Under the pieces are notes generated by a model. That model saw only the letters and a program-made list of their open reading frames with translations. It did not search any database and was not told where the DNA came from. This document shows, one piece after another, positions 1-34,833 of a stretch of 34,837 bases of DNA; the stretch's first letter is position 1, and each line of letters begins with the position of its first letter. Source of the DNA: an uncultured virus (IMG/VR IMGVR_UViG_3300027917_000026) (Duplodnaviria > Heunggongvirae > Uroviricota > Caudoviricetes). Both the position numbers and the translations under genes were made by a program. The stretch lies in the IMG/VR virus record IMGVR_UViG_3300027917_000026; one strand, written 5' to 3'.

Positions 1-1401
1 CTTTATCATATCAACATCGGCGGCGGGTAGCATTTTCCGCGCAACCTGTTTTTGTAGTTGTTTATTGAATATGTCAGATTTGACTATAATTGATGCAGTC
101 AAAATATTTTCAAGGTCTGTCGCAAGATCCTCAACGTCATACGTTCTTTCACGTTCAATTGAAAATTCGCCAACATCTACATTTTCCCATGCCGCCCAAT
201 ACTCAACAATCTTGCGTTCCGCTTTTTCAAGGTTAATTGCTTTTCGCACCAACATGGAGTTAAGCAATTGAAATTCGGCTTTCAATGCCGTACCCGATTT
301 TGCTGTTGTAGATATTTCAGTGGATGCCATTCCGCCAGCGTTCACGGCTCGATATATCTCCATAACTTTTCTTTCAATCCATGCTAAAACCGCGTCAATC
401 GGTTCTTTAACTGCGGCGGCAAGCCAATCAGGTTTTGACTCCGGATGTTCGGGATCAAATTCTAAAATTGCAGTAACACCTGTTTCATCCTCTCCGGCAA
501 CCTGTTGATGACCGGGCACTTGCTCCTGTTTCGGTTTTCTCATCATAGGAAAAGCCGCATAAGTAATAATTTCTTCGCCGTGACTTAAATTCCTTAGTAT
601 TGAAACATCGATTCTCGAAACATCATGGATATCCGAAATACCTATCGGCCTAACTTTACTTCTAAGATTTTGTAGCCAAACAAACGGAATCTCACCCAAT
701 GTATTATCACCCTCACCAATCAATTCCGCTTCTTTTGAATTTATCTTCGCGGCGTGCTTATCACCCGCCGAATCCTCATCATTTTCATCATCAGGTATCT
801 CCCATATCTCCCAATGGTCTGGCCACCACAAGCGATATTGTTTATCCTCATCCAATAACTTCAAATAAGACAGATACGGCCGGTTGTTTTCGTCTCGCGC
901 ATATTCCCAATCCATAATAGCTTGCGGAAGATATCTTGCCACATATGGATAAACATTTTCTTCGACTTGCTCGGCGCGGGTTTCAAATGATCGGGATGCC
1001 TTATCTACAAGTATTCCGACAAGACCTGTCACACCCGCCCACCGACCGCATTCCGTCAAGAAGTCATCCCATGGATCACCATACAAATTGCAGTCATCTT
1101 GAAATTCGGCAAACAGGTTGTCATTTTTAAGGTTCGCCATATCACGCTTTACAGGTTTCTTGAAAAGGTAGAAATTGAAAAGGTCAACTATCGATTTGCT
1201 ATAACTAAAACCATATGCTTCTTTTATTCGCCGTTCATAGTTGCCTTGGCTTTCACGTTCATGTTTTTCAAGATACCCTCTTCGCACCAACTCTTTTGCA
1301 CCCTCATATGCCGCCATCAAAAAAATCCATTCTGGGAAGTAAAACGTATAGAGTTCATGCGTTTCCTTAAGATCACCAGCTTTCAGTTGTTCTTTCGGCA
1401 T
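1..1401 (-). CDS. Phage portal protein (SPP1/DUF4055-like), 3' end outside the window
   Basis: Hand translation from ATG at 1401 (MPKEQLKAGDLKETHELY...AAYEG...YLEKHERESQGNYERR...LGEIPFV...SGTALKAEF) stays open to base 1. The motifs and the position downstream of terminase fit a portal. Absent from the ORF track, presumably because it has no stop in the window. Confidence 0.85.
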   Translation of the reverse strand, partial: MPKEQLKAGDLKETHELYTFYFPEWIFLMAAYEGAKELVRRGYLEKHERESQGNYERRIKEAYGFSYSKSIVDLFNFYLFKKPVKRDMANLKNDNLFAEFQDDCNLYGDPWDDFLTECGRWAGVTGLVGILVDKASRSFETRAEQVEENVYPYVARYLPQAIMDWEYARDENNRPYLSYLKLLDEDKQYRLWWPDHWEIWEIPDDENDEDSAGDKHAAKINSKEAELIGEGDNTLGEIPFVWLQNLRSKVRPIGISDIHDVSRIDVSILRNLSHGEEIITYAAFPMMRKPKQEQVPGHQQVAGEDETGVTAILEFDPEHPESKPDWLAAAVKEPIDAVLAWIERKVMEIYRAVNAGGMASTEISTTAKSGTALKAEFQLLNSMLVRKAINLEKAERKIVEYWAAWENVDVGEFSIERERTYDVEDLATDLENILTASIIVKSDIFNKQLQKQVARKMLPAADVDMIK

Positions 1402-1551
1402 TTATCTTTTTCCTTTTTTCTTCTTTTTCTTTTTGCCTGTTTTATATGACTGCCCTGTTTGATCTTGACAGATCCGAATTGCGGATACTTTGCTTTTTCC
1501 CGAAGCAATTACTTTTCGCACTCACCTATGGACTTTCGTGCCTTTTGGCAT
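1402..1551 (-). CDS. 49-aa basic protein with in-frame TGA at codon 10; candidate selenoprotein (MPKGTKVHR-U-VRKVIASGKSKVSAIRICQDQTGQSYKTGKKKKKKKGKR)
   Basis: SD AAGGAG then ATG at 1551; TGA at 1524-1522; frame continues to TAA at 1404-1402, directly abutting the portal ATG; hairpin immediately 3' of the TGA. Confidence 0.7.
1480..1521 (-). promoter_or_regulatory. Putative bacterial SECIS element
   Basis: After the UGA: G-UGCG-AAAAGUAA-UUGCUU-[CGGGAAA]-AAGCAA-AGUAUC-CGCA. The apical loop starts 19 nt after UGA with G at loop position 2, matching the general bacterial SECIS model. Confidence 0.6.
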
Positions 1552-1560
1552 TTTTACTCC

Positions 1561-1830
1561 TTAACCAAATTTCGGATTAAAACTAATTCTTCGTCGCGTT
1601 GACTTATACCCACCTGTTGACAATTTATATGCGGCTTGCGCCGTTCTTATGTTTCCGGGAGATCCTGTACGTGCAATATGCTTCAGTGCGGCCTTTTTTA
1701 ATTTCGGTGATGTTCGCATACCGCGCTTTAATGCTTCCCGCGCTTTTGCCATATTCAGCTTACGTGCCGCACGTTGTCGCGGGGTGATCCGTTTCGGCCT
1801 AAGACTTTTACTTCTTTTTCTTTTAGCCAT
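1561..1830 (-). CDS. Small Lys/Arg-rich protein, paralog 1 (ITPRQRAARKLNMAKAR motif)
   Basis: SD AAGGAG; very basic; motif shared with 2702-2905 and 3027-3239. Confidence 0.8.
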   Translation of the reverse strand: MAKRKRSKSLRPKRITPRQRAARKLNMAKAREALKRGMRTSPKLKKAALKHIARTGSPGNIRTAQAAYKLSTGGYKSTRRRISFNPKFG

Positions 1831-2692
1831 TTTTACTCCTTAATTTTCTTTTTAATTTCAAGTAGTGTTTCTTGATTGCTCGGAAACAGGTACACCAACT
1901 TTCACTGTCATCCGGCGGCGGAGGCGGATCGGGCGTAGGTGGCGGATCGGGCGGCGATTCTTTTCCGCCAAACATTACTCCCGCTTTGTTTTCGCTTGAC
2001 CCCTCAATTTGTGGCGTTTGCGGGTATTTCCTTGACGGTAAATGCCCCGATATCTTTGTGCCAAATGCGTTGTAGTCAATCGGATATAATTCATTAAGGA
2101 TATTTAAGGCAAACCTTGAAAACAAGCCGCCATTTTCATCTTCATATGAATATTCGTCATCCGAACATGCCGAAAGTAGTATTTCCGGCATTGCCTCATC
2201 CGATAAAAAACTTTTACTACGTTTCGCGGTTAACGGCATATCCGTTTTCGGCTGTCTAAATTTTCTTTTCAATCCTACATCATTTGACATTAATCGCGTG
2301 CCGGTTCCGCCAAAACAGCAATCCAAAATAACGGTCATCGATGACTTCAAATTATTCAAGATTTTTCTGAAGTCATCGTCAAGAAAATCCTGATCGTATA
2401 GGCAAAGTACTTCATCCCAGCCATCCGCTTCATCATTGTTTAGATCCCATTCATACGAACCATGGCCAGAATAGAAAAATACCAAATTGTCTTCGGCGGA
2501 TGCATTGTCAATCATGGTTTTCAAGTCGCCTGTAACCCGCGCCCACGTTGCGTTTGCATTGAAGATATAATTGCACTGATATCCCAATGACTGCAAGAAA
2601 TTGCCCCACTTGGTTGCATCATTGACACATTGCGTCAAATCGTTTTCCCATCCGGGGTAGTCATTTATGCCGACAAGTATTGCCTGTTTCAT
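1823..2692 (-). CDS. Caspase-family (peptidase C14, metacaspase-like) protease
   Basis: AILVGINDY, CVNDA, catalytic FYSGHG, DE.DG.DE, ILDCC, LLSAC, QTPQ motifs; Pro-rich linker and basic C-terminal tail. Confidence 0.92.
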   Translation of the reverse strand: MKQAILVGINDYPGWENDLTQCVNDATKWGNFLQSLGYQCNYIFNANATWARVTGDLKTMIDNASAEDNLVFFYSGHGSYEWDLNNDEADGWDEVLCLYDQDFLDDDFRKILNNLKSSMTVILDCCFGGTGTRLMSNDVGLKRKFRQPKTDMPLTAKRSKSFLSDEAMPEILLSACSDDEYSYEDENGGLFSRFALNILNELYPIDYNAFGTKISGHLPSRKYPQTPQIEGSSENKAGVMFGGKESPPDPPPTPDPPPPPDDSESWCTCFRAIKKHYLKLKRKLRSKNG

Positions 2693-28104: not shown

Positions 28105-29382
28105 ATGGCAAAGAAAAAACTCAATGTCTTACTTGTCGAACCCCCATACCGCGCCGTTCATCTACCATTCGGATTGCAAAAAATATCTACATATCATTTG
28201 AAACGTGGTGATAAAGTCACGTTTATCCATGACCATCCGAAGAACGTTTTCACGTTCAGCAAGAAACCGCATTTCCATAGGATCTATGTCACATCTGTTT
28301 TTACTTACAACGGCAAGATCGTTGTAAATACCGTGAAATATCTACAAAGACTTTTTCCTGATTCGCGTATTATGATCGGCGGAATATTCGCAACCCTTAT
28401 GCCTGACTATGTTGAGCAAGAAACAGGAATTACACCGTGGACTGGTTTATATCCAAAAGTTGAAGATCTCAAACCCGATTACTCTATATTCCCATTGGGT
28501 AAGCAAGCCTGTTGTATTACTTCCCGTGGGTGTGTACGGAATTGCGAGTTTTGCGCAGTATCAGATTTGGAGCCGGGTTTTTCTTTAGAAGTAAAATGGC
28601 GTGAACAAATACTTGCGGGTTATGAGGCGGGTTTGCGCCATCTGAATATACAAGATAACAACTACCTTGCAAACCCATATTCCCATCAAAAAGAGGTTAC
28701 AGAATTCCTACTAAAATTTCCTGATATGACCATTGACTTTAATCAAGCAATTGATTGCCGTTTGTTTACAGATAAAAAAGCAAAACTTATGGCAAAGCTT
28801 AAAATACCCGTATTGAGATTTGCATTCGATGGAATGCAATCTGATAAGTATTTCCAGAAGGCTTGTCGGCTTGCCAAAAAACTTAAAGTCGGAAAAGATA
28901 TTACTTCATACACTCTTTACAATTTTGATGATACGCCCGAAGACTTTTGGTATAGGTTAAATGAGATATTTAAAAGCGGCACAAATGCATTTCCGATGAA
29001 GTACGTTCCGCTTGACGCACTTGACAAGTCATTTATCGGAAAGCACTGGACGCGATCCATGCTGAAAAATTTTCAACAACTAATGCGCAAGTGGTCAACT
29101 ACTGGCGCAACCTTATCTCATAGGGGTCACAAGAAGTGGAAAAATCACCGTATTGGCAGAACAGCCGAAGAATTTGTTGAAATGCTGAATGCACCACGTA
29201 TCAGTAGTAAACACTTTGTTGACTTGCGCTCAAGTGACCGAGCAAGATCTACAGGGTTCGGCCTGACCGACAGATCCGAAATTGAGGATTCACTCGAAAG
29301 AAATGTAAAAATAGGAGTACTTGACAAAAAGGGCAAACGCAAAGGGCGGCGCACCATGGGTAGAAATATTAAATATAAGTGA
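28105..29382 (+). CDS. Radical SAM protein with cobalamin-binding-like N-domain, paralog 1
   Basis: LLVEPP..PFGL, TSVFTY, GGIFAT, TSRGCVRNCEFC, DNN. Confidence 0.9.
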   Translation: MAKKKLNVLLVEPPYRAVHLPFGLQKISTYHLKRGDKVTFIHDHPKNVFTFSKKPHFHRIYVTSVFTYNGKIVVNTVKYLQRLFPDSRIMIGGIFATLMPDYVEQETGITPWTGLYPKVEDLKPDYSIFPLGKQACCITSRGCVRNCEFCAVSDLEPGFSLEVKWREQILAGYEAGLRHLNIQDNNYLANPYSHQKEVTEFLLKFPDMTIDFNQAIDCRLFTDKKAKLMAKLKIPVLRFAFDGMQSDKYFQKACRLAKKLKVGKDITSYTLYNFDDTPEDFWYRLNEIFKSGTNAFPMKYVPLDALDKSFIGKHWTRSMLKNFQQLMRKWSTTGATLSHRGHKKWKNHRIGRTAEEFVEMLNAPRISSKHFVDLRSSDRARSTGFGLTDRSEIEDSLERNVKIGVLDKKGKRKGRRTMGRNIKYK

Positions 29383-29389
29383 GAATCAA

Positions 29390-30679
29390 ATGACGAAAAA
29401 AATTAAAAGAAGAAAACAGGACATTTTACTTGTCGAACCACCTTACAAAGTATCCAATCTAAATCTTGGTTTGCAGAAGATTGCCACCTATCATTTGAAA
29501 CGTGGCGACCGAGTTGACTTCATCCATGACCATCCAAAGCACTATTTCTCTATGATTCAGCCGAAGCACTATGATAAAATTTATGTAACATCCGTTTTTA
29601 CATATCATGGAAAAATAGTAGTTAATACCATCAAATATCTACAACGTATTTTTCCGAATACTGAAATCCTTGTGGGTGGCATATTTGCTACCATGATGAG
29701 TGATTATGTTAAAAAGAAAACTGGAATCAAGCCATGGATCGGTATTTATCCAAAAGCGGAATTTCAAAAGCCTGACTACACTCTTTTCCCAAAACCGCAC
29801 CATGGCACCGTAATGACTTCTCGCGGATGCCCACGCAAATGCGAGTTTTGCGCAGTCAAATCTTTGGAACCAAAATTTAGTATTGTCAAAAGTTGGAAAA
29901 AACATATTGATGCTGGATATGAAGTCGGTCTAAAAAATATCTGTATTGTCGATAATAACTTTACAGCATTGCCATGGAAACATCAAAATGAGGTTGGCGA
30001 TTATGTCAATGGCTACAAGGATCTTTGGATTTTCTTTGCTTCTCTGGATACCCGTATATTCAAGGAACGCAACGCGAAACTATTTAATAAGTTAAAAATT
30101 TCATATATCTTTTGGGCATTTGATAACATGGAAGAGGATGGCCCATTCCAACGCGCAATGGAGTTATGTCATAAATATGCCCTTGCAAAAAATTATCATT
30201 GCTACGTACTTTACAACTTTGAGGATACGCCGCAAGAATTTTGGTATAGATTAAATGAAGTAATTAAATCGGGTGCCACGGCATTGCCTATGAAATATGT
30301 ACCTTTGAACGCATTGACTAAAACCGAATATGTAGGAAAACACTGGAACAAGAAAATGCTCAAAGGATTTATGAATCTATTGCGCCGCACCACACAAACA
30401 GGTGCATCCTTAAGTCACAATGCTTACAAACACAATGCTATCGGGCGATCAGCAGAAGAGTTTATAGATTTGATAACCAAAGATTATGTAAGTACTTCCT
30501 ATTTCAGCCAACTAAGGCAATCAGATCGTGCTTTGAATACTGGATTTGGATTAACAGATCGTAAAGATGTGATACAATCAAAAGAGAAACACAAGAAACG
30601 CAAGAAAATGAAGCAATTGAAAAAGTTGCAATATAGAACGGCTGACAAAGTACTACCCGGACAAGCCAAAAACAAATAA
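29390..30679 (+). CDS. Radical SAM protein with cobalamin-binding-like N-domain, paralog 2
   Basis: LLVEPP..LGL, TSVFTY, GGIFAT, TSRGCPRKCEFC, DNNF. Confidence 0.9.
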   Translation: MTKKIKRRKQDILLVEPPYKVSNLNLGLQKIATYHLKRGDRVDFIHDHPKHYFSMIQPKHYDKIYVTSVFTYHGKIVVNTIKYLQRIFPNTEILVGGIFATMMSDYVKKKTGIKPWIGIYPKAEFQKPDYTLFPKPHHGTVMTSRGCPRKCEFCAVKSLEPKFSIVKSWKKHIDAGYEVGLKNICIVDNNFTALPWKHQNEVGDYVNGYKDLWIFFASLDTRIFKERNAKLFNKLKISYIFWAFDNMEEDGPFQRAMELCHKYALAKNYHCYVLYNFEDTPQEFWYRLNEVIKSGATALPMKYVPLNALTKTEYVGKHWNKKMLKGFMNLLRRTTQTGASLSHNAYKHNAIGRSAEEFIDLITKDYVSTSYFSQLRQSDRALNTGFGLTDRKDVIQSKEKHKKRKKMKQLKKLQYRTADKVLPGQAKNK

Positions 30680-30700: not shown

Positions 30701-31729
30701 ATGAAATATGAATGTGGGGTATTGCTCAAAGCATTGGATTCGGTAAAGGATATTGCGAAGTCAATTCGCATTCGTGAAAAGACCGCTTGTGTAATGCTTG
30801 CTCATAATCAAATCATTGCTCAAAATGATGAATGCTACATTGCATTCAGTTTTGACCACAATATTGAAATGGCTGTTTTACCATTCGATAAACTTTACAA
30901 TCTGATATCCTATTTTCCGGCATCCACAAAAGTAGCAATGTCAAAAAAGGATGGCAAAGTAGTCATCAAACTGAAAGGCAAAACCAAATCGTCTCAATCC
31001 ACGATTGCCGAGATACAGGATGAAGACATTGCCTATATCGATCCGCCGCTTGACGGATGGGATGACTTGCCGGATGACTTCGAAACAGGCTTGAAATTGT
31101 GCCGTTTCTGTTTGCCAAAAGAATCATTGAATCCAGCTTTGACTACATTTGGTATTGACGGTGATACCATTTACACGTCAGACGATTTTAGGATCAGCAA
31201 ATATAAAATGTCAGATTCGTTTGACAGAAGTTTTACTATAAGTGGTGACAACGGCGGAATCATAATTGCCAATAACTTCTTGCGGTACATGCTTGAGGAT
31301 ACCTATATTGACTTGCGCAAGGGTGATGTGTTTGCGCGGATCATGCTGGGAATCGATGAATATCCTAAGATTGCCGAAGACCTGTTTTCCTATGATGAAA
31401 AAGTGACCGTTGCCAAGTCATCATTTTTGACAGCACTAGACCGAGCATCACTCTTTGCTGAAGGCCTTTCAGAGATTGACTACGCCATGGAATTCTTTAT
31501 TAAAGACAATTCCTATACTTTCAAGGCACAAAACGAATTTGGAAAGAATACGGAAAACGGCACACTCAAAGGTAGTATTTCCAAAGATCTGTCGGTCAAT
31601 CCTGTTTACTTATCACAAGCACTGAAAAATTTATCTTCCAAAAAATGCGATATTGGCATTGATGAAAACAACCGATTGATCTTCGCTGAAAAAGGATTCT
31701 CACACATTTTGGCAACCTATAACAAATAG
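30701..31729 (+). CDS. DNA polymerase III beta (sliding clamp)-like protein
   Basis: 342 aa; P.LT, TSDDFRI, YP, LDRASLF, NPVYL motifs; near the clamp loader. Confidence 0.75.
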   Translation: MKYECGVLLKALDSVKDIAKSIRIREKTACVMLAHNQIIAQNDECYIAFSFDHNIEMAVLPFDKLYNLISYFPASTKVAMSKKDGKVVIKLKGKTKSSQSTIAEIQDEDIAYIDPPLDGWDDLPDDFETGLKLCRFCLPKESLNPALTTFGIDGDTIYTSDDFRISKYKMSDSFDRSFTISGDNGGIIIANNFLRYMLEDTYIDLRKGDVFARIMLGIDEYPKIAEDLFSYDEKVTVAKSSFLTALDRASLFAEGLSEIDYAMEFFIKDNSYTFKAQNEFGKNTENGTLKGSISKDLSVNPVYLSQALKNLSSKKCDIGIDENNRLIFAEKGFSHILATYNK

Positions 31730-31738
31730 GGGTTTGCA

Positions 31739-31897
31739 ATGTTTGAATATTTATTTTTCGGGTTTTTTGGTGTAGTAATCGGGGCAATTGTGGGCGTGGT
31801 ATTGCAAAGCATTTCAGGAAGTGGATTGCTTGCATGGTTCGGCGCAATTACTACATTGCTAGTTTTCCTTTTCATCGGATGGGTTGAAAATCAATAG
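31739..31897 (+). CDS. 52-aa two-TM membrane protein
   Basis: Hand-translated MFEYLFFGFFGVVIGAIVGVVLQ...; SD AGGGG. Confidence 0.65.
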   Translation: MFEYLFFGFFGVVIGAIVGVVLQSISGSGLLAWFGAITTLLVFLFIGWVENQ

Positions 31898-31906
31898 GAG
31901 TGAATC

Positions 31907-32137
31907 ATGGGTGAATTTGTCAAAAGAGAAATCGAGCGATATCAAGACAAATACAACACCATTTGGTTTTTACAGGGTAGCAAACCCACACCAAAATTTT
32001 TGGTCGATGATATTTTGCAATGCAAATTTGAAAGATTTGGTAGCAATGCATCAGGCGAAGATATGTATTGGAAAACCCCACTCGCAAATATCACAACCCG
32101 CTTGAATGGTGAAGATTCGGCGGGTGACAGGAGGTAA
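31907..32137 (+). CDS. Hypothetical protein
   Basis: SD AGGAG. Confidence 0.7.
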   Translation: MGEFVKREIERYQDKYNTIWFLQGSKPTPKFLVDDILQCKFERFGSNASGEDMYWKTPLANITTRLNGEDSAGDRR

Positions 32138-32139
32138 TT

Positions 32140-32370
32140 ATGCCAATAACATTGCGCGACAAATATCAACATGACCCGCATTTTAAATCACTTGTAGATA
32201 TTATGGTTTCTAATATTCAAGCATTTCATTTTACTCCATCGGAAATGCGTGAGGCGGCAATGTTGGCATCGATCATTTATGAAGAACACAACATATCCCG
32301 CATGAAATTTGTCGAACCTGATATTGAAGCCGCGTTAAGGGTAATCAGAAAACGGTTAGAAAAGGAGTAA
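32140..32370 (+). CDS. Conserved small phage protein (Y..DP.F..LVD...TPSE.REAA)
   Basis: SD AGGAGG. Confidence 0.75.
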   Translation: MPITLRDKYQHDPHFKSLVDIMVSNIQAFHFTPSEMREAAMLASIIYEEHNISRMKFVEPDIEAALRVIRKRLEKE

Positions 32371-32373
32371 ATC

Positions 32374-33303
32374 ATGGCAAGCCTAGACAAAAAATACAGG
32401 CCGAAAACTTTAAAACGTATTGTAGGAAATAAGCAAATAGTCATTACCTTGAAATCATTTTTTAGAAATCCCGATTCTTTTCCGGCGACCATATTACTAC
32501 AAGGCCCGAGTGGTTGCGGCAAGACAACGTTGGCGCGGATCATTGCCAAGATGCTGAAAGTCGGAAAAGGAAATGTCTACGAATTAAATATCGGCACGCA
32601 AAGAAAAATTGACGATGCAAGGGCAATCCTTGAAAACCTTAGATATTCACCTATGCATGGAAGTGGCAAGGTCATCGTATTGAATGAATGCCACAAAGCA
32701 AACAATGAATTTCAAAATGTCATGCTTGAAACACTTGAAGAACCACCACCCAATGTTTACTTCATTTTATGCACCACCAATCCAGAGAAACTTCTTGATA
32801 CCATTAAAACACGATCAACCATAATGACCGTTAGAACACTTGACCATGATGAGATCATGCAAGCAGTCAAATACGTTGCCCGAAAAGAAGGTAAGACAAT
32901 TGCATCCAGCATTGTCAGAAAAATAGCTACGGCAAGTCAAGGATCGCCGCGCTCCGCCTTGGTTATACTGAATCAAATCATAAATCTTAAAAGTAGTCAA
33001 AGAATGAAAGAGGTCATTGCAAATTACAATCCGATGGAAGATCCAAAGTTAAATGAATTCTGTCAGGCATTGCTCAAAGGCACTGGCTATAAGGGTTTGA
33101 TGAAGATAGTGAAAGGGCTTGACGGTGACGCGGAAGACATTCGATATAGAGTGCTTGACTATATGAGCAAGGTCTTGATTGACAAAGATAATGCGGTTGC
33201 CGCAATGGTCATAAATAATTTTTATGACTCTTTTCAATATGTAGGCAAAGCGGGTTTGGTGCTTGCCGTTTACAATGTTATTGCATCACTAGAGGAGGGA
33301 TAA
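32374..33303 (+). CDS. Clamp loader (DnaX gamma/tau-like AAA+)
   Basis: KYRP....IVG, GPSGCGKTTLARI, LEEPP, FILCTT, GSPR.AL. Confidence 0.92.
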   Translation: MASLDKKYRPKTLKRIVGNKQIVITLKSFFRNPDSFPATILLQGPSGCGKTTLARIIAKMLKVGKGNVYELNIGTQRKIDDARAILENLRYSPMHGSGKVIVLNECHKANNEFQNVMLETLEEPPPNVYFILCTTNPEKLLDTIKTRSTIMTVRTLDHDEIMQAVKYVARKEGKTIASSIVRKIATASQGSPRSALVILNQIINLKSSQRMKEVIANYNPMEDPKLNEFCQALLKGTGYKGLMKIVKGLDGDAEDIRYRVLDYMSKVLIDKDNAVAAMVINNFYDSFQYVGKAGLVLAVYNVIASLEEG

Positions 33304-33605
33304 TGACTGATTTAATTTTCAATGGCCCAGAATTAGAGGAAGAGGATTTAACTTTGGAATTGTCTAGAGATCTTGACCGCATTGGCTTATCACAAAAAAA
33401 ACTACAAATGATCGGTGCCGCTATATTCAGTGAATTGGCGCGGATAATCAATCATCCTGATTTTTGGAAATATAACTACACTGGCCGTGGGCGAACACTT
33501 GACCTTTACGAAACCAAAAGGGCATTTGTAGAGATACTACTAAACAAATCTGAAAATCTTTTAATGAAAGCACTTGTGGATGAGAAAAATAAAAAGACGG
33601 ATTAA
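33303..33605 (+). CDS. Hypothetical protein
   Basis: TAATG coupling; SD GGAGGG. Confidence 0.65.
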   Translation: MTDLIFNGPELEEEDLTLELSRDLDRIGLSQKKLQMIGAAIFSELARIINHPDFWKYNYTGRGRTLDLYETKRAFVEILLNKSENLLMKALVDEKNKKTD

Positions 33606-34833
33606 ACCTTTTTTCAAAGTAGGCAAATCAAAACTATATCAAGGCAATGCACTTGCGATATTGCGGAAGATACCTGACGAATCCGTCCAATCCTGTATTA
33701 CTTCGCCGCCATACTGGGGGTTAAGGGATTATGACACAATCCCGCAAATATGGGATGAACGGCGCATTGGTTATTGCAAGCAATATATTGCTGATAACAG
33801 CAACACAATTGTTGAAGTAAATTATATCAGAAATGGTCACGATTGGGGCAAGCGTATTATCAAACGGCGAACACATACAGACCATGGCACATCAACACTT
33901 TCGGGTAGTAATAAAGATCAAATGAAAAGCACATCTTATAAGTCATCCTCCCAAGTTTGTAGGTATTGTGGCGCATGGCGCGGTTCACTAGGTCTTGAAC
34001 CGCATCCCGATTTATATGTAAATCATTTAGTACAAATATTTAATGAAGTAAAACGAATTCTGAAACCGAATGGTATTGCATGGCTGAATATTGGTGACAG
34101 CTACGCTGGGGGCGGCGGCGTGCATGGCATTCCCGATGATTGGGATTCGATATCTACAAAAAATCGTAGTAAACATCCTGATACAGTTGACCCAAAAAGA
34201 AACGCAAAAGCTATCGGCCTAAAACCCAAAGATCTTGTAGGCATTCCATGGAAAGTCGCGTTTGCCTTGCAATCAAGGGGATGGTATCTTCGCCAAGATA
34301 TTATTTGGAATAAACCAAATCCCATGCCGGAATCGGTAACAGACCGATGCACCAAAACCCATGAATATATCTTCTTATTATCAAAGTCTCAAAAATATTA
34401 TTTTGACTACAAAGCCATAAAGGAACCTTGCACACCCGCAAATATAGCGGATTTACGTGGTAGAAAAACAATGATGAACAAAGGCGACCATGGCGGCACT
34501 CGAAAAGATCTTGCGAGATCGCGCCTTGATTACATGGCTGAAGATCTTATGAGAAATAAAAGATCCGTCTGGACTATAAATTCATCTACATATAAAGGTG
34601 CCCATTTTGCGGTATTCCCTGAAGGTCTAATCAAGCCGTGTATTTTAGCGGGTACGAAAAAAGGTGATGTAGTAATTGATCCATTTGCCGGATCAGGTAC
34701 TACAGCAGTTCTATGTGAAAAGGCACACCGCAATTGGCTAGGAATCGAGTTATCAGAAAAATATTGTAAAATGATAAAGAGACGTGTTAAACCATATTAT
34801 AAAAGACGAATAGCTAGTTTAGGATTAACATAA
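33580..34833 (+). CDS. DNA methyltransferase, N6/N4 family, beta order (probably N4-cytosine)
   Basis: TSPPY motif IV precedes DPFAGSGTT motif I; WLNIGDSY, IIWNKPNPMPES, HFAVFP. Confidence 0.93.
   Translation: MRKIKRRIKPFFKVGKSKLYQGNALAILRKIPDESVQSCITSPPYWGLRDYDTIPQIWDERRIGYCKQYIADNSNTIVEVNYIRNGHDWGKRIIKRRTHTDHGTSTLSGSNKDQMKSTSYKSSSQVCRYCGAWRGSLGLEPHPDLYVNHLVQIFNEVKRILKPNGIAWLNIGDSYAGGGGVHGIPDDWDSISTKNRSKHPDTVDPKRNAKAIGLKPKDLVGIPWKVAFALQSRGWYLRQDIIWNKPNPMPESVTDRCTKTHEYIFLLSKSQKYYFDYKAIKEPCTPANIADLRGRKTMMNKGDHGGTRKDLARSRLDYMAEDLMRNKRSVWTINSSTYKGAHFAVFPEGLIKPCILAGTKKGDVVIDPFAGSGTTAVLCEKAHRNWLGIELSEKYCKMIKRRVKPYYKRRIASLGLT

What the first reader, a model, noticed from the sequence alone, without database searches (positions are those of the whole stretch)
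1402..1551. Candidate phage-encoded selenoprotein, with SECIS, directly upstream of the portal gene
Seen: a 150-nt gap with no called gene holds the operon's standard SD (AAGGAG) and an ATG. The frame reads MPKGTKVHR-TGA-VRKVIASGKSKVSAIRICQDQTGQSYKTGKKKKKKKGKR, and its TAA touches the portal ATG. A hairpin follows the TGA (UUGCUU/AAGCAA upper stem, UGCG/CGCA lower stem, loop CGGGAAA starting 19 nt after UGA). Known: bacterial SECIS elements sit immediately 3' of the UGA with a G at the start of the apical loop, and Sec usually replaces Cys. Inference: residue 10 is selenocysteine and could pair with Cys28. I recall small phage proteins with a 'CV...SA.AIC' pattern but cannot verify this here. 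A phage selenoprotein in a packaging operon would be very unusual. Because read-through delivers ribosomes to the portal start, which has only a weak SD of its own, it could tie capsid production to host selenium/SelB status. It also implies a Sec-using host.
Basis: partly seen in the sequence, partly recalled or inferred. Interest (0 to 1): 0.92.

Follow-up and report, generated by a model that had tools for sequence, protein, structure and literature searches.

The report
Probable selenocysteine protein in a phage
A tiny gene next to the portal gene of an uncultured sediment phage has a "stop" codon exactly where its many relatives have a cysteine, followed by the kind of RNA hairpin that tells bacteria to insert selenocysteine, so it is probably a selenium-containing phage protein, something not described for bacteriophages in the papers searched.

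Summary
The 49-codon frame belongs to a widespread family of small basic phage proteins (355 representative clusters; 178 IMG/VR relatives) encoded in head/packaging modules. Codon 10 is Cys in 65 of 80 IMG/VR loci, Leu/Ile/Val in 13 (all with Ala instead of Cys28) and TGA in 2. Pattern scans found 12 further distinct TGA alleles, in at least four clusters of a weakly resolved tree, all with an intact, purifying-selected frame after the TGA (pN/pS 0.07-0.44). Stems differ in sequence, and synonymous recodings rarely give such a hairpin. TGA is an ordinary stop elsewhere in these phages, no suppressor tRNA or sel gene is phage-encoded, and only 6 of 13 alleles have a start codon after the TGA. 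Best reading: SelB/SECIS-dependent selenocysteine at residue 10, paired with Cys28 in a two-helix hairpin. Not shown: the host, its Sec machinery and actual Se incorporation. The window's own hairpin is weak taken alone. Portal coupling is not general.

The parts
1402..1551 (-). 49-codon gene of a small basic phage protein family, with an in-frame TGA at codon 10 (candidate selenoprotein)
   Evidence: Translation. 19 homologs with E 8e-15 to 6e-6. 178 IMG/VR relatives. 355 representative clusters.
1557..1562 (-). Shine-Dalgarno AAGGAG, 5 nt before the ATG
   Evidence: Read from the sequence.
1522..1524 (-). TGA at codon 10, the position of the family's conserved Cys; proposed Sec codon
1480..1520 (-). 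SECIS-like stem-loop. Lower stem 1520-1517 with 1483-1480. Upper stem 1508-1503 with 1495-1490. Loop CGGGAAA at 1502-1496, starting 19 nt after the UGA.
   Evidence: domain dG -8.2, upper stem -3.1. The equivalent hairpin is present in 12 of 12 other TGA alleles.
1468..1470 (-). Codon of Cys28, the proposed partner of residue 10
   Evidence: Covariation: C/U10+C28 in 65 of 78 parsed genes, L/I/V10+A28 in the other 13, no mixed cases. The AF2 model has helices 6-16 and 21-32.
1402..1431 (-). Lys-rich C-terminal tail (KKKKKKKGKR) and the TAA stop that abuts the portal ATG
1..1401 (-). Portal protein gene (runs off the window)
   Evidence: phrog_145, E 3.2e-55.
1561..1830 (-). Upstream 89-aa ORF of unknown function in the same operon
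   Evidence: only a weak match to phrog_25996.

Best explanation
The TGA at codon 10 is most likely decoded as selenocysteine by the host's SelB/tRNA-Sec system. The signal would be a small SECIS hairpin coded inside the gene, with its apical loop starting 19 nt after the UGA. The product is a 49-residue selenoprotein version of a widespread phage protein that normally has Cys at this site.

Shown here:
- The family exists and is widespread.
- A Cys/TGA alternation occurs at one column of the alignment.
- TGA alleles recur in several lineages.
- The frame after the TGA is under purifying selection.
- A position-fixed hairpin is specific to the TGA alleles.
- TGA is used as an ordinary stop elsewhere in these phages.

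Inferred:
- The decoding agent is SelB/Sec.
- Residue 10 contacts Cys28 across a two-helix hairpin and forms a selenylsulfide, where Cys forms would have a disulfide.

Inferred with low confidence (about 0.3): the protein is a low-copy procapsid- or portal-associated internal protein. Its stapled helical hairpin would anchor a basic (DNA-binding) tail or, in fused relatives, a long charged extension.
For: (1) Cys/TGA pair. Position 10 is Cys in 17 of 19 database homologs. In the 80 IMG/VR loci the codon is TGC 32, TGT 33, TGA 2 and Leu/Ile/Val 13.

(2) Recurrence. 13 distinct TGA alleles were found: the window, the L023/L024 allele, and 11 family members among 40 metagenome pattern hits. Of 9 IMG/VR hits, 6 are family members. 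All 13 keep C28, Q29 and T32 and an open frame to a normal stop. On a 41-column tree they fall in at least 4 clusters.

(3) Translation past the TGA. pN/pS over codons 11-34 between TGA alleles is 0.07-0.44 in 19 of 19 pairs. Codon 11 is a start codon (GTG) in only 6 of 13 alleles; the other 7 have GTC, GTA or GTT.

(4) Hairpin specific to TGA alleles. [quoted passage not shown] It is met by 12 of 12 other TGA alleles, 5 of 57 Cys alleles and 1 of 8 hydrophobic alleles. With dG <= -3 the counts are 12/12, 0/57 and 0/8. Loop starts are 18-21 nt in 13 of 13, and loops show G followed by G or U in 13 of 13.

(5) The stems differ in sequence (about 8 different stems). Within the window clade the same peptide ASGKSK is coded with Ser AGC or UCN so that pairing is kept, while the Cys allele L007 (SSGKSK) has no hairpin.

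(6) L089 and L103 carry a 4-residue insertion, absent from 13 Cys relatives, exactly where their 8-bp GC stem is coded.

(7) Synonymous recodings of each TGA allele reach the observed hairpin with probability 0.002-0.098. On average 10.6% of recodings pass the criterion, against 13 of 13 observed. For Cys alleles 4.9% is expected and 1 of 44 observed.

(8) The element fits the published bSECIS model: loop 3-9 nt, stem 4-16 bp, G in the first two loop positions, 16-37 nt spacing, MFE <= -7.5 (passages of PMC13188914). The window's domain dG is -8.2.

(9) There is no global recoding. TGA ends 8 of 31 long ORFs in the window and 21/93, 16/81 and 19/71 in three complete TGA-allele phage genomes. 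No suppressor tRNA was found: only tRNA-Gly(UCC) and tRNA-Ile(UAU) in G004, none in the window, G001, G002, G005 or G006.

(10) Residues 10 and 28 covary perfectly in 78 parsed genes. They sit opposite each other in a confident helical-hairpin model (pLDDT 87).
Against: - No experiment or proteomic datum shows Se incorporation.
- The host is unknown, so its selA/B/C/D could not be checked. Five phage records, three of them complete, encode none of selA, selB or selD and no tRNA-Sec above cut-off.
- The window's own hairpin is weak: upper stem -3.1 kcal/mol and z -1.35.
- Only 7 of 13 alleles reach -7.5 kcal/mol on a 51-nt stretch.
- With the permissive published model the contrast is modest: 9 of 13 TGA against 17 of 57 Cys alleles.
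- Whole-region MFE over 60 nt does not separate the classes: -12.7 against -12.4.
- The hydrophobic class also folds stably over codons 13-24: mean -7.4, z -0.97.
- RNAalifold on the ungapped 13-sequence alignment predicts no pairs, because the register shifts by 1-2 nt between lineages.
- No Rfam SECIS family is hit in the window or in 12 TGA loci.
- The alleles are related, so the p-values overstate independence. Well-supported branches of the tree force only one origin of TGA.
- The TGA-specific scans required MPKGT.. and a Val/Ile/Met codon after the TGA, so N-terminal conservation in those hits is circular.
- Only the probable source run covers the window's TGA.
Confidence: 0.7

Rival explanations
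1. The UGA is handled without selenocysteine. The hairpin would slow the ribosome or otherwise modulate termination. The gene would then make mostly a 9-residue peptide plus a small amount of full-length protein by near-cognate read-through (Trp or Cys). This would act as an expression throttle for a low-copy protein and, in the window clade, for the coupled portal gene.
For: The hairpin is tied to the TGA, but nothing here identifies SelB as its reader. The window's stem is weak. No Rfam SECIS family is hit. The host's Sec capacity is unknown. In the window, L111 and L123 the stop abuts the portal start.
Against: The geometry and loop rule are those of the bacterial SECIS model: loop at 18-21 nt and G[G/U] in 13 of 13 alleles. 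The codon sits only at the conserved Cys column. That column tolerates only Cys or, together with Ala28, small hydrophobic residues, so a Trp there is unlikely to be functional. From recall, I know of no class of hairpin-stimulated UGA read-through in bacteria other than SECIS.
Confidence: 0.15
2. Translation restarts at the GTG directly after the TGA. This would give a 39-residue protein that lacks the first ten residues; the upstream ATG frame would be a short leader.
For: In the window the TGA is followed by GTG and preceded by AGGTGA, which resembles an SD. The ORF listing reports this 39-aa ORF. Codon 11 is GTG in 6 of 13 TGA alleles, against 6 of 43 Cys alleles.
Against: 7 of 13 TGA alleles have GTC, GTA or GTT at codon 11. 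In L023 the next in-frame start is Met34. The SD-like AGGTGA ends at the start codon, which leaves no spacer. The strong SD+ATG and codons 1-9 are kept. The truncated product would lose the residue that covaries with Cys28. This reading also does not explain the hairpin.
Confidence: 0.05
3. The window allele is a pseudogene or an assembly or sequencing error (TGC/TGT read as TGA).
For: TGA is one substitution away from TGC or TGT. Only the probable source run (contig depth 9.25) covers the codon.
Against: 12 other distinct TGA alleles come from other contigs. The frame after the TGA is intact and under purifying selection. The hairpin is allele-specific.
Confidence: 0.03
4. The phage or its host reads TGA as a sense codon throughout (code 4 or 25, or phage stop-codon recoding).
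For: Stop-codon recoding is known in phages (recalled). ORF cover of the window rises from 0.69 to 0.80 if TGA is read as sense.
Against: TGA ends 8 of 31 long ORFs in the window and 16-21 long ORFs in each of three complete TGA-allele genomes. Large genes such as terminase, portal and helicases are intact under table 11. No tRNA with anticodon UCA was found.
Confidence: 0.02

Closest known systems
[quoted passage not shown]
   Same: An in-frame UGA sits at a column where homologs have Cys, and other UGA-bearing homologs exist. A stem-loop lies just 3' of the UGA, with a 3-9 nt loop, G then G/U at the start of the loop, and UGA-to-loop spacing within 16-37 nt (here 18-21).
   Different: The gene is in a phage genome, in the head/packaging module. 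The protein is only 49 residues and has no known redox-enzyme fold. The upper stems are short (4-8 bp) and 6 of 13 are weaker than -7.5 kcal/mol. There is no hit to the Rfam SECIS families. The decoding machinery must come from an unidentified host.
Selenoproteins of eukaryotic viruses (glutathione-peroxidase homologs of molluscum contagiosum and fowlpox viruses, recalled; 'viral selenoprotein' occurs only in papers on eukaryotic viruses in the listing)
   Same: A virus gene whose translation depends on the host's selenocysteine machinery.
   Different: Those are captured host enzymes with eukaryotic 3'-UTR or in-ORF SECIS elements. This one is a phage-specific small structural-module protein with a bacterial-type hairpin.
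Stop-codon recoding in phages (TAG or TGA reassigned in late genes with phage suppressor tRNAs; recalled, not read here)
   Same: An in-frame stop codon in a late (morphogenesis) gene of a phage.
   Different: Here a single codon in a single gene is affected. TGA is a normal stop in 8 of 31 long ORFs. No suppressor tRNA is present. A local hairpin accompanies the codon.
tRNA-SeC gene reported in Basilisk-like Bacillus phages (PMC6145125, passage read)
   Same: A link between phages and the selenocysteine system. The authors call it the first such tRNA in phages.
   Different: That is a predicted tRNA with no phage selenoprotein named. Here it is the reverse: a candidate selenoprotein gene with no tRNA-Sec in 7 phage records.
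Hypothetical protein DAD54690.1 of Thermocrinis Great Boiling Spring virus (BK013347.1 5292-5426)
   Same: A distant Cys-form relative with the same layout: MP..K..RCV.KV..KG...SAYAIC..STG followed by a basic tail.
   Different: It has Cys rather than TGA, sits about 2.2 kb upstream of the portal, and the tblastn match is weak (E = 1, 51.5% over 33 residues).

Membership tests
Bacterial selenoprotein gene (Sec-UGA + bSECIS) | In-frame UGA aligned with Cys in homologs | tested here: met
   Cys in 17 of 19 homologs. Cys codons in 65 of 80 IMG/VR loci.
Bacterial selenoprotein gene (Sec-UGA + bSECIS) | Other UGA-containing homologs with a conserved frame on both sides | tested here: met
   12 further distinct TGA alleles. 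pN/pS 0.07-0.44 after the TGA. Conservation before the TGA is partly imposed by the search pattern.
Bacterial selenoprotein gene (Sec-UGA + bSECIS) | bSECIS geometry: 3-9 nt apical loop, 4-16 bp upper stem, G in the first two loop positions, 16-37 nt from UGA to loop (PMC13188914) | tested here: met
   Window: 6-bp stem, 7-nt loop CGGGAAA, 19 nt from the UGA. 13 of 13 TGA alleles meet these three rules, with spacing of 18-21 nt.
Bacterial selenoprotein gene (Sec-UGA + bSECIS) | bSECIS stability: MFE <= -7.5 kcal/mol | tested here: inconclusive
   The window reaches -8.2 only when the lower stem, which pairs the UGA itself, is included; the upper stem alone is -3.1. 7 of 13 alleles pass on 51 nt and 9 of 13 on 69 nt, but so do 17 of 57 Cys alleles.
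Bacterial selenoprotein gene (Sec-UGA + bSECIS) | Organism has selA, selB, selC (tRNA-Sec) and selD | not testable with these tools
   The host is unknown. The phage records themselves have none: 0 of 5 for selB, selD and selA, and tRNA-Sec above cut-off in 0 of 7 records.
Bacterial selenoprotein gene (Sec-UGA + bSECIS) | Selenium actually incorporated (75Se labelling or mass spectrometry) | not testable with these tools
   No experimental data are available. No RNA run was listed among the holders.
Rfam SECIS families (among them SECIS_3 RF01989 and SECIS_4 RF01990, which one search's preprint names as bacterial) | Match to the covariance model | tested here: not met
   No hit at gathering score in the window. 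No hit at E <= 10 over 1380-1620. No hit at E <= 5 in 12 TGA-allele loci.
Globally TGA-recoded phage or host (code 4 or 25 type) | TGA not used as a stop; in-frame TGAs in many genes; suppressor tRNA | tested here: not met
   TGA ends 8 of 31 long ORFs in the window and 16-21 long ORFs in each of three complete relatives. No tRNA(UCA) was found.
Any named protein family (Pfam, PHROGs) | Significant profile match | tested here: not met
   Pfam: 0 families for P0001, and no family shared by 2 or more of the 20 members even at E <= 10. PHROGs: 0 for P0001, P0005 and P0009. The DUF6496 lead from the atlas (score 0.81) was not confirmed. Foldseek found no match with E <= 0.001 in PDB or BFVD.

The most novel reading that the evidence does not exclude
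This would be a bona fide bacteriophage-encoded selenoprotein family. A conserved two-helix, two-Cys head-module protein has switched between Cys and Sec several times. Each switch evolved (once by a 12-nt insertion) a minimal SECIS inside a gene of about 45 codons, and translation relies wholly on the host's SelB/tRNA-Sec. Assembly of these phages, and in the window clade perhaps portal translation, would then depend on host selenium status. The TGA allele would also mark phages of selenocysteine-using hosts in anoxic sediments.
Probability: 0.65. Interest if true: 0.88.

Novelty: new variant of a known kind. Interest (0 to 1): 0.82.

Why it matters
Selenocysteine decoding is regarded as a property of cellular genes and of a few genes captured by eukaryotic viruses. 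In the library searched, no paper uses the phrases 'phage selenoprotein', 'phage-encoded selenoprotein' or 'bacteriophage selenoprotein' (0 papers). A 2026 review of the prokaryotic selenoproteome and the BSepDB paper never mention phage or virus.

If this is true, several things follow:
- Phages can exploit the host's Sec machinery for a virion-morphogenesis protein.
- It provides a very small natural SECIS (a stem-loop of about 20 nt inside 45 codons) with natural Cys controls. That is useful for studying SelB recognition and for engineering Sec insertion.
- It offers a sequence marker for phages that infect Sec-using hosts.
- It links phage production in sulfidic sediments to selenium.
- It shows that gene callers systematically miss or truncate such genes; P0015, 37 aa, is probably one.

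Tried and rejected
- Host identification failed. The window's assembly is not held. G002, classed as a provirus, holds only phage genes in the 20 ORFs scanned. The atlas lists only viral clusters for the terminase.
- No RNA holder was listed. Contigs of runs X3, X4 and X5 do not cover the TGA.
- No Rfam family was hit.
- RNAalifold on the ungapped alignment of 13 TGA alleles predicted 0 pairs. I built no covariance model, so covariation is shown by listing stems, not by a formal pair count.
- MFE over 60 nt does not separate TGA from Cys alleles.
- tblastn and blastn against 50,697 phage records gave 2 weak protein hits and no DNA match.
- Fold searches found nothing with E <= 0.001.
A natural Cys homolog gave only 'hypothetical protein' clusters.
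- The DUF6496 lead was not confirmed.
- A search for TGA at the Cys28 codon found 0 stretches, but the same strict motif with TGY finds only 24, so this says little.
- The sub-threshold tRNA-Sec hits in G004 and G007 are tRNA-Gly(UCC).
- A scan for further TGA+hairpin ORFs in the window, G002 and G004-G006 gave only short frames or frames with a few codons before the TGA. Those I compared with the ORF lists overlap larger ORFs, and none was followed further.
- PHROGs on 35 long fused relatives: 29 had no match.
Full report
**Observation**

The feature lies on the minus strand. Reading 1600 down to 1380 gives these elements:
- AAGGAG at 1562-1557, then a 5-nt spacer.
- ATG at 1551-1549, then nine codons (MPKGTKVHR).
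- TGA at 1524-1522, then 39 more sense codons.
- TAA at 1404-1402, directly followed by the ATG of a 467-aa ORF that runs off the window.

The downstream ORF is a portal (phrog_145, E 3e-55). Further upstream in the same direction lie an 89-aa ORF, a caspase-like Peptidase_C14 gene, and the large and small terminase genes. Table 11 lists only a 39-aa GTG ORF in the gap.

The hairpin is as described: UUGCUU / loop CGGGAAA / AAGCAA, with the loop starting 19 nt after the UGA, plus a UGCG/CGCA lower stem. By itself it is unremarkable:
- The 76-nt fold is -14.3 kcal/mol with z = -1.35, and 24 of 200 shuffles fold as well.
- The upper stem alone is -3.1 kcal/mol.
- Comparable TGA+hairpin combinations occur five more times in arbitrary frames of the window.

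**The protein family**

- A word-indexed search found 19 proteins of 37-74 aa, with E from 8e-15 to 6e-6.
- A profile of these found 355 representative clusters at E <= 1e-3 and 150 at E <= 1e-10.
- IMG/VR holds 178 confirmed relatives, of which the best 80 loci were kept.
- The consensus is MPKGTKVHRCV.KVK.KG...AIAICQ.STGQSYKTGK followed by a Lys/Arg tail.
- No Pfam or PHROG family matches.
- AlphaFold2 on the 20-sequence alignment gives a confident model (pLDDT 87.2) with helices 6-16 and 21-32. Residues 10 and 28 then lie about equally far from the turn. That they face each other is my inference; I could not read the coordinates.
- Foldseek finds nothing at E <= 0.001 in PDB or BFVD.

The genomic context is head/packaging. 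Of 101 neighbouring ORFs scanned, 28 match head-and-packaging or connector PHROGs: large terminase 8, portal or adaptor/portal 9, adaptor Ad2 5, small terminase 2, and protease, scaffold or virion structural protein 4. Two match tail families and one a lysis family. The rest match unknown-function families or nothing.

In many relatives the domain is the N-terminus of long, charged, low-complexity proteins: L027 at 518 aa, L040-L044 at 216 aa, and P0078 and P0088. In P0152 it follows a head-maturation-protease domain. A distant Cys-form member is an annotated hypothetical protein of Thermocrinis Great Boiling Spring virus.

**Position 10**

In the 80 IMG/VR loci the codon is TGC 32, TGT 33, TGA 2 and Leu/Ile/Val 13. 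Every Leu/Ile/Val allele has Ala instead of Cys at position 28, and so does P0020 (L10/A28). Every Cys or TGA allele has Cys28. Among the 78 parsed genes there are no mixed cases. Residues 10 and 28 therefore behave as one contacting pair, either a (seleno)cysteine pair or a small hydrophobic pair.

**Other TGA alleles**

- The L023/L024 allele is the same gene on two contigs.
- A TGA-specific degenerate pattern gave 40 stretches in metagenome contigs. Of these, 11 are true family members and 29 are chance.
- The same pattern gave 8 stretches in genome contigs, none of them family members.
- It gave 9 stretches in IMG/VR: 6 family members representing 4 distinct alleles, and 3 chance hits.

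Together with the window this makes 13 distinct TGA alleles. All of them keep C28, Q29 and T32 and a normal stop.

On a 41-column tree (weakly resolved) the TGA alleles fall into at least four clusters, and the fewest changes of state is 4. Well-supported branches alone would allow a single origin.

**Is the frame after the TGA translated?**

Between TGA alleles, pN/pS over codons 11-34 is 0.07-0.44 in all 19 pairs compared, with synonymous sites near saturation. Codon 11 is GTG in 6 of the 13 alleles but GTC, GTA or GTT in 7. In L023 the next in-frame start is Met34. Restart therefore cannot be the general explanation; ribosomes must pass the TGA.

**Is TGA generally a sense codon here?**

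No.
- TGA ends 8 of 31 ORFs of 100 aa or more in the window.
- It ends 21 of 93, 16 of 81 and 19 of 71 such ORFs in three complete (CheckV 100%) genomes that carry TGA alleles, G004-G006.
- The only tRNAs in those three genomes are Gly(UCC) and Ile(UAU) in G004. The window, G001 and G002 have none.
- No selB, selD or selA was found in 5 of 5 records searched.
- No tRNA-Sec above cut-off was found in 7 of 7 records. The 28.6-bit hits are the tRNA-Gly.

**The hairpin**

The window itself is left out of these counts.

| Criterion | Other TGA alleles | Cys alleles | Hydrophobic alleles | Fisher p |
|---|---|---|---|---|
| any dG | 12 of 12 | 5 of 57 | 1 of 8 | 5e-10 |
| dG <= -3 kcal/mol | 12 of 12 | 0 of 57 | 0 of 8 | 2.7e-14 |

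The alleles are related, so these p-values overstate independence.

Further points for the hairpin:
- Loop starts are 18-21 nt in 13 of 13 TGA alleles. Every loop has G followed by G or U. The published bacterial SECIS model describes this as the usual form (PMC13188914, passages).
- The stems are not conserved in sequence:
  - UCGCGCGC/GCGCGUGG in L089
  - ACCCGUA/UAUGGGU in L097
  - GGGCUUC/GAAGUCC in L023
  - CCCGU/ACGGG in L118
  - UGCGCA/UGCGUA in L093
  - GGCAU/GUGCC in L104
  - GCUC/GAGC in L088 and L095
  - UGGCUU(C)/(G)AAGUCA in L111, L121 and L123
  - UUGCUU/AAGCAA in the window
- Within the window's clade the same peptide ASGKSK is coded with Ser20 as AGC or UCN, together with matching changes upstream. 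The Cys allele L007 (SSGKSK) forms no hairpin.
- L089 and L103 carry a 4-residue insertion, absent from 13 Cys relatives of their subfamily, exactly where their 8-bp GC stem is coded.
- Synonymous recodings of each TGA allele reach the observed hairpin with probability 0.002-0.098. On average 10.6% of recodings pass the criterion, against 13 of 13 observed. For Cys alleles 4.9% is expected and 1 of 44 observed.

Results that weaken the picture:
- MFE over 60 nt does not separate the classes: -12.7 against -12.4.
- Over codons 13-24 the TGA alleles are more stable than Cys alleles (-8.0 against -5.1, Mann-Whitney p = 0.008). The hydrophobic class is similar to the TGA class, at -7.4.
- The energy rule of the published model (<= -7.5 kcal/mol) is met by 7 of 13 alleles on 51 nt; the window reaches -8.2 with its lower stem.
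- With the whole permissive model (16-37 nt spacing) 9 of 13 TGA alleles pass, but so do 17 of 57 Cys alleles (p = 0.007). The tight position distinguishes the TGA alleles, not mere foldability.
- RNAalifold on the ungapped alignment finds no pairs, because the register shifts by 1-2 nt between lineages.
- No Rfam family is hit.

**Interpretation**

Five features together make this the standard comparative signature of a bacterial selenoprotein gene:
- a Cys/UGA alternation at one column;
- recurrence of the UGA in several lineages;
- coding conservation beyond the UGA;
- a hairpin that appears only with the UGA, at the SECIS distance, with the SECIS loop rule and with stems that vary;
- normal use of UGA as a stop elsewhere.

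I put SelB-dependent Sec insertion at about 0.7. The remaining doubt has three sources: the host and its Sec machinery are unknown, nothing shows Se incorporation, and nothing here identifies SelB as the hairpin's reader. The window's DNA is held by marine-sediment and estuary metagenome runs from 6 studies. That fits habitats rich in Sec users, but it is context only. Only the probable source run's contig (depth 9.25, no differences) spans the TGA.

On function, I infer that Sec10 and Cys28 cross-link the two helices, as a selenylsulfide where Cys forms have a disulfide. From recall, a selenylsulfide is harder to reduce than a disulfide, which could matter for a particle in sulfidic sediment. 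I infer with low confidence (about 0.3) that the stapled hairpin is a procapsid- or portal-associated module carrying a basic tail or a long charged extension. The basis is its place in head modules and its fusions, including the one to a prohead protease.

It is not a family feature. In L023 and L097 the gene is 210 and 120 nt from the portal, and in L093 and L095 it lies downstream of the portal.

**Comparison with what is known, and novelty**

The mechanism proposed is the known bacterial one. What is new is the setting. Full-text searches found no paper with the phrases 'phage selenoprotein', 'phage-encoded selenoprotein' or 'bacteriophage selenoprotein'; 'viral selenoprotein' occurs only in papers on eukaryotic viruses (listing). 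The listings for selenoprotein/bacteriophage/SECIS and for selenocysteine/phage/prophage/UGA showed none either.

What I saw of individual papers:
- A 2026 review of the prokaryotic selenoproteome and the BSepDB paper have no occurrence of phage, virus or viral (term search over the text).
- deep-Sep has no occurrence of phage or viral (term search).
- A marine trace-element survey says that the metalloprotein and selenoprotein families it examined, apart from RNR II, plastocyanin and Cu-Zn SOD, have few or no viral sequences (passage).
- One paper reports a predicted tRNA-SeC in Bacillus phages (passage).

Supplements of these papers were not read.

Earlier notes of this scan report other candidate phage selenoproteins, e1-6055852, e1-6036874 and e1-6018176. 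They are unchecked AI notes. I could not link any of them to this family by sequence, and the MuF lead does not apply to these genomes.

I file the finding as a new variant of a known kind.

Noticed in passing
window 1823-2692 (-): A 289-aa caspase-like Peptidase_C14 gene (PF00656, E 2e-24) sits inside the head/packaging operon, between the terminase and the portal. This is an unusual protease type for a phage morphogenesis module.
   Followed up: no
L027:2086-3642, L040:3001-3651, L067:3001-3738, L069:3001-3621; P0078, P0088, P0152: The 45-residue domain is often the N-terminus of long Lys/Glu/Ala-rich proteins of 200-620 aa. In P0152 (845 aa) it follows a head-maturation-protease domain (phrog_976). 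This suggests a targeting or anchoring module of scaffold-like or internal head proteins.
   Followed up: partly
L089:2201-2344 (-), L103:31-174 (+): These TGA alleles have a 4-residue insertion (..LVAR / MVAR..) absent from 13 Cys relatives. The insertion codes the 8-bp GC-rich stem, which looks like a SECIS created by insertion.
   Followed up: partly
L139:2674-2746 (+) (= G004:20014-20086), also L142: A tRNA-Gly(UCC) gene lies about 255 nt upstream of the TGA-allele gene in a complete 95-kb phage genome. It produced a sub-threshold (28.6-bit) hit to the tRNA-Sec model.
   Followed up: partly
P0021 (1682 aa): The best profile hit (E 8e-42) is a 1682-aa protein with 29 matched stretches to profile positions 2-26. 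It is a long repeat protein of unknown meaning that also matches three unknown-function PHROGs.
   Followed up: no
window 29321-30679 (+), 33574-34833 (+), 30701-33303 (+): The replication side of the phage encodes a weak B12-binding/radical-SAM-like protein, an N6/N4 DNA methylase (E 7e-51), a sliding-clamp-like protein and a clamp-loader subunit.
   Followed up: no
whole window: Cover by ORFs of 100 aa or more rises from 0.69 to 0.80 if TGA is read as sense. This is more than in the related genomes. It is probably due to run-on into neighbouring frames, but it was not resolved gene by gene.
   Followed up: partly
P0015 (37 aa): This database protein starts at family position 12 and resembles the L111/L121/L123 alleles. 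It is probably another TGA allele whose gene call was truncated; its DNA could not be fetched.
   Followed up: no
G002 (L132:10528-11706 (-), L132:5894-6724 (-), L133:10143-11609 (+)): The related TGA-allele phage carries a DegT-type aminotransferase, a GFO/IDH/MocA oxidoreductase and a TGT-like (queuine tRNA-ribosyltransferase family) gene. These may be sugar or DNA-modification functions.
   Followed up: no
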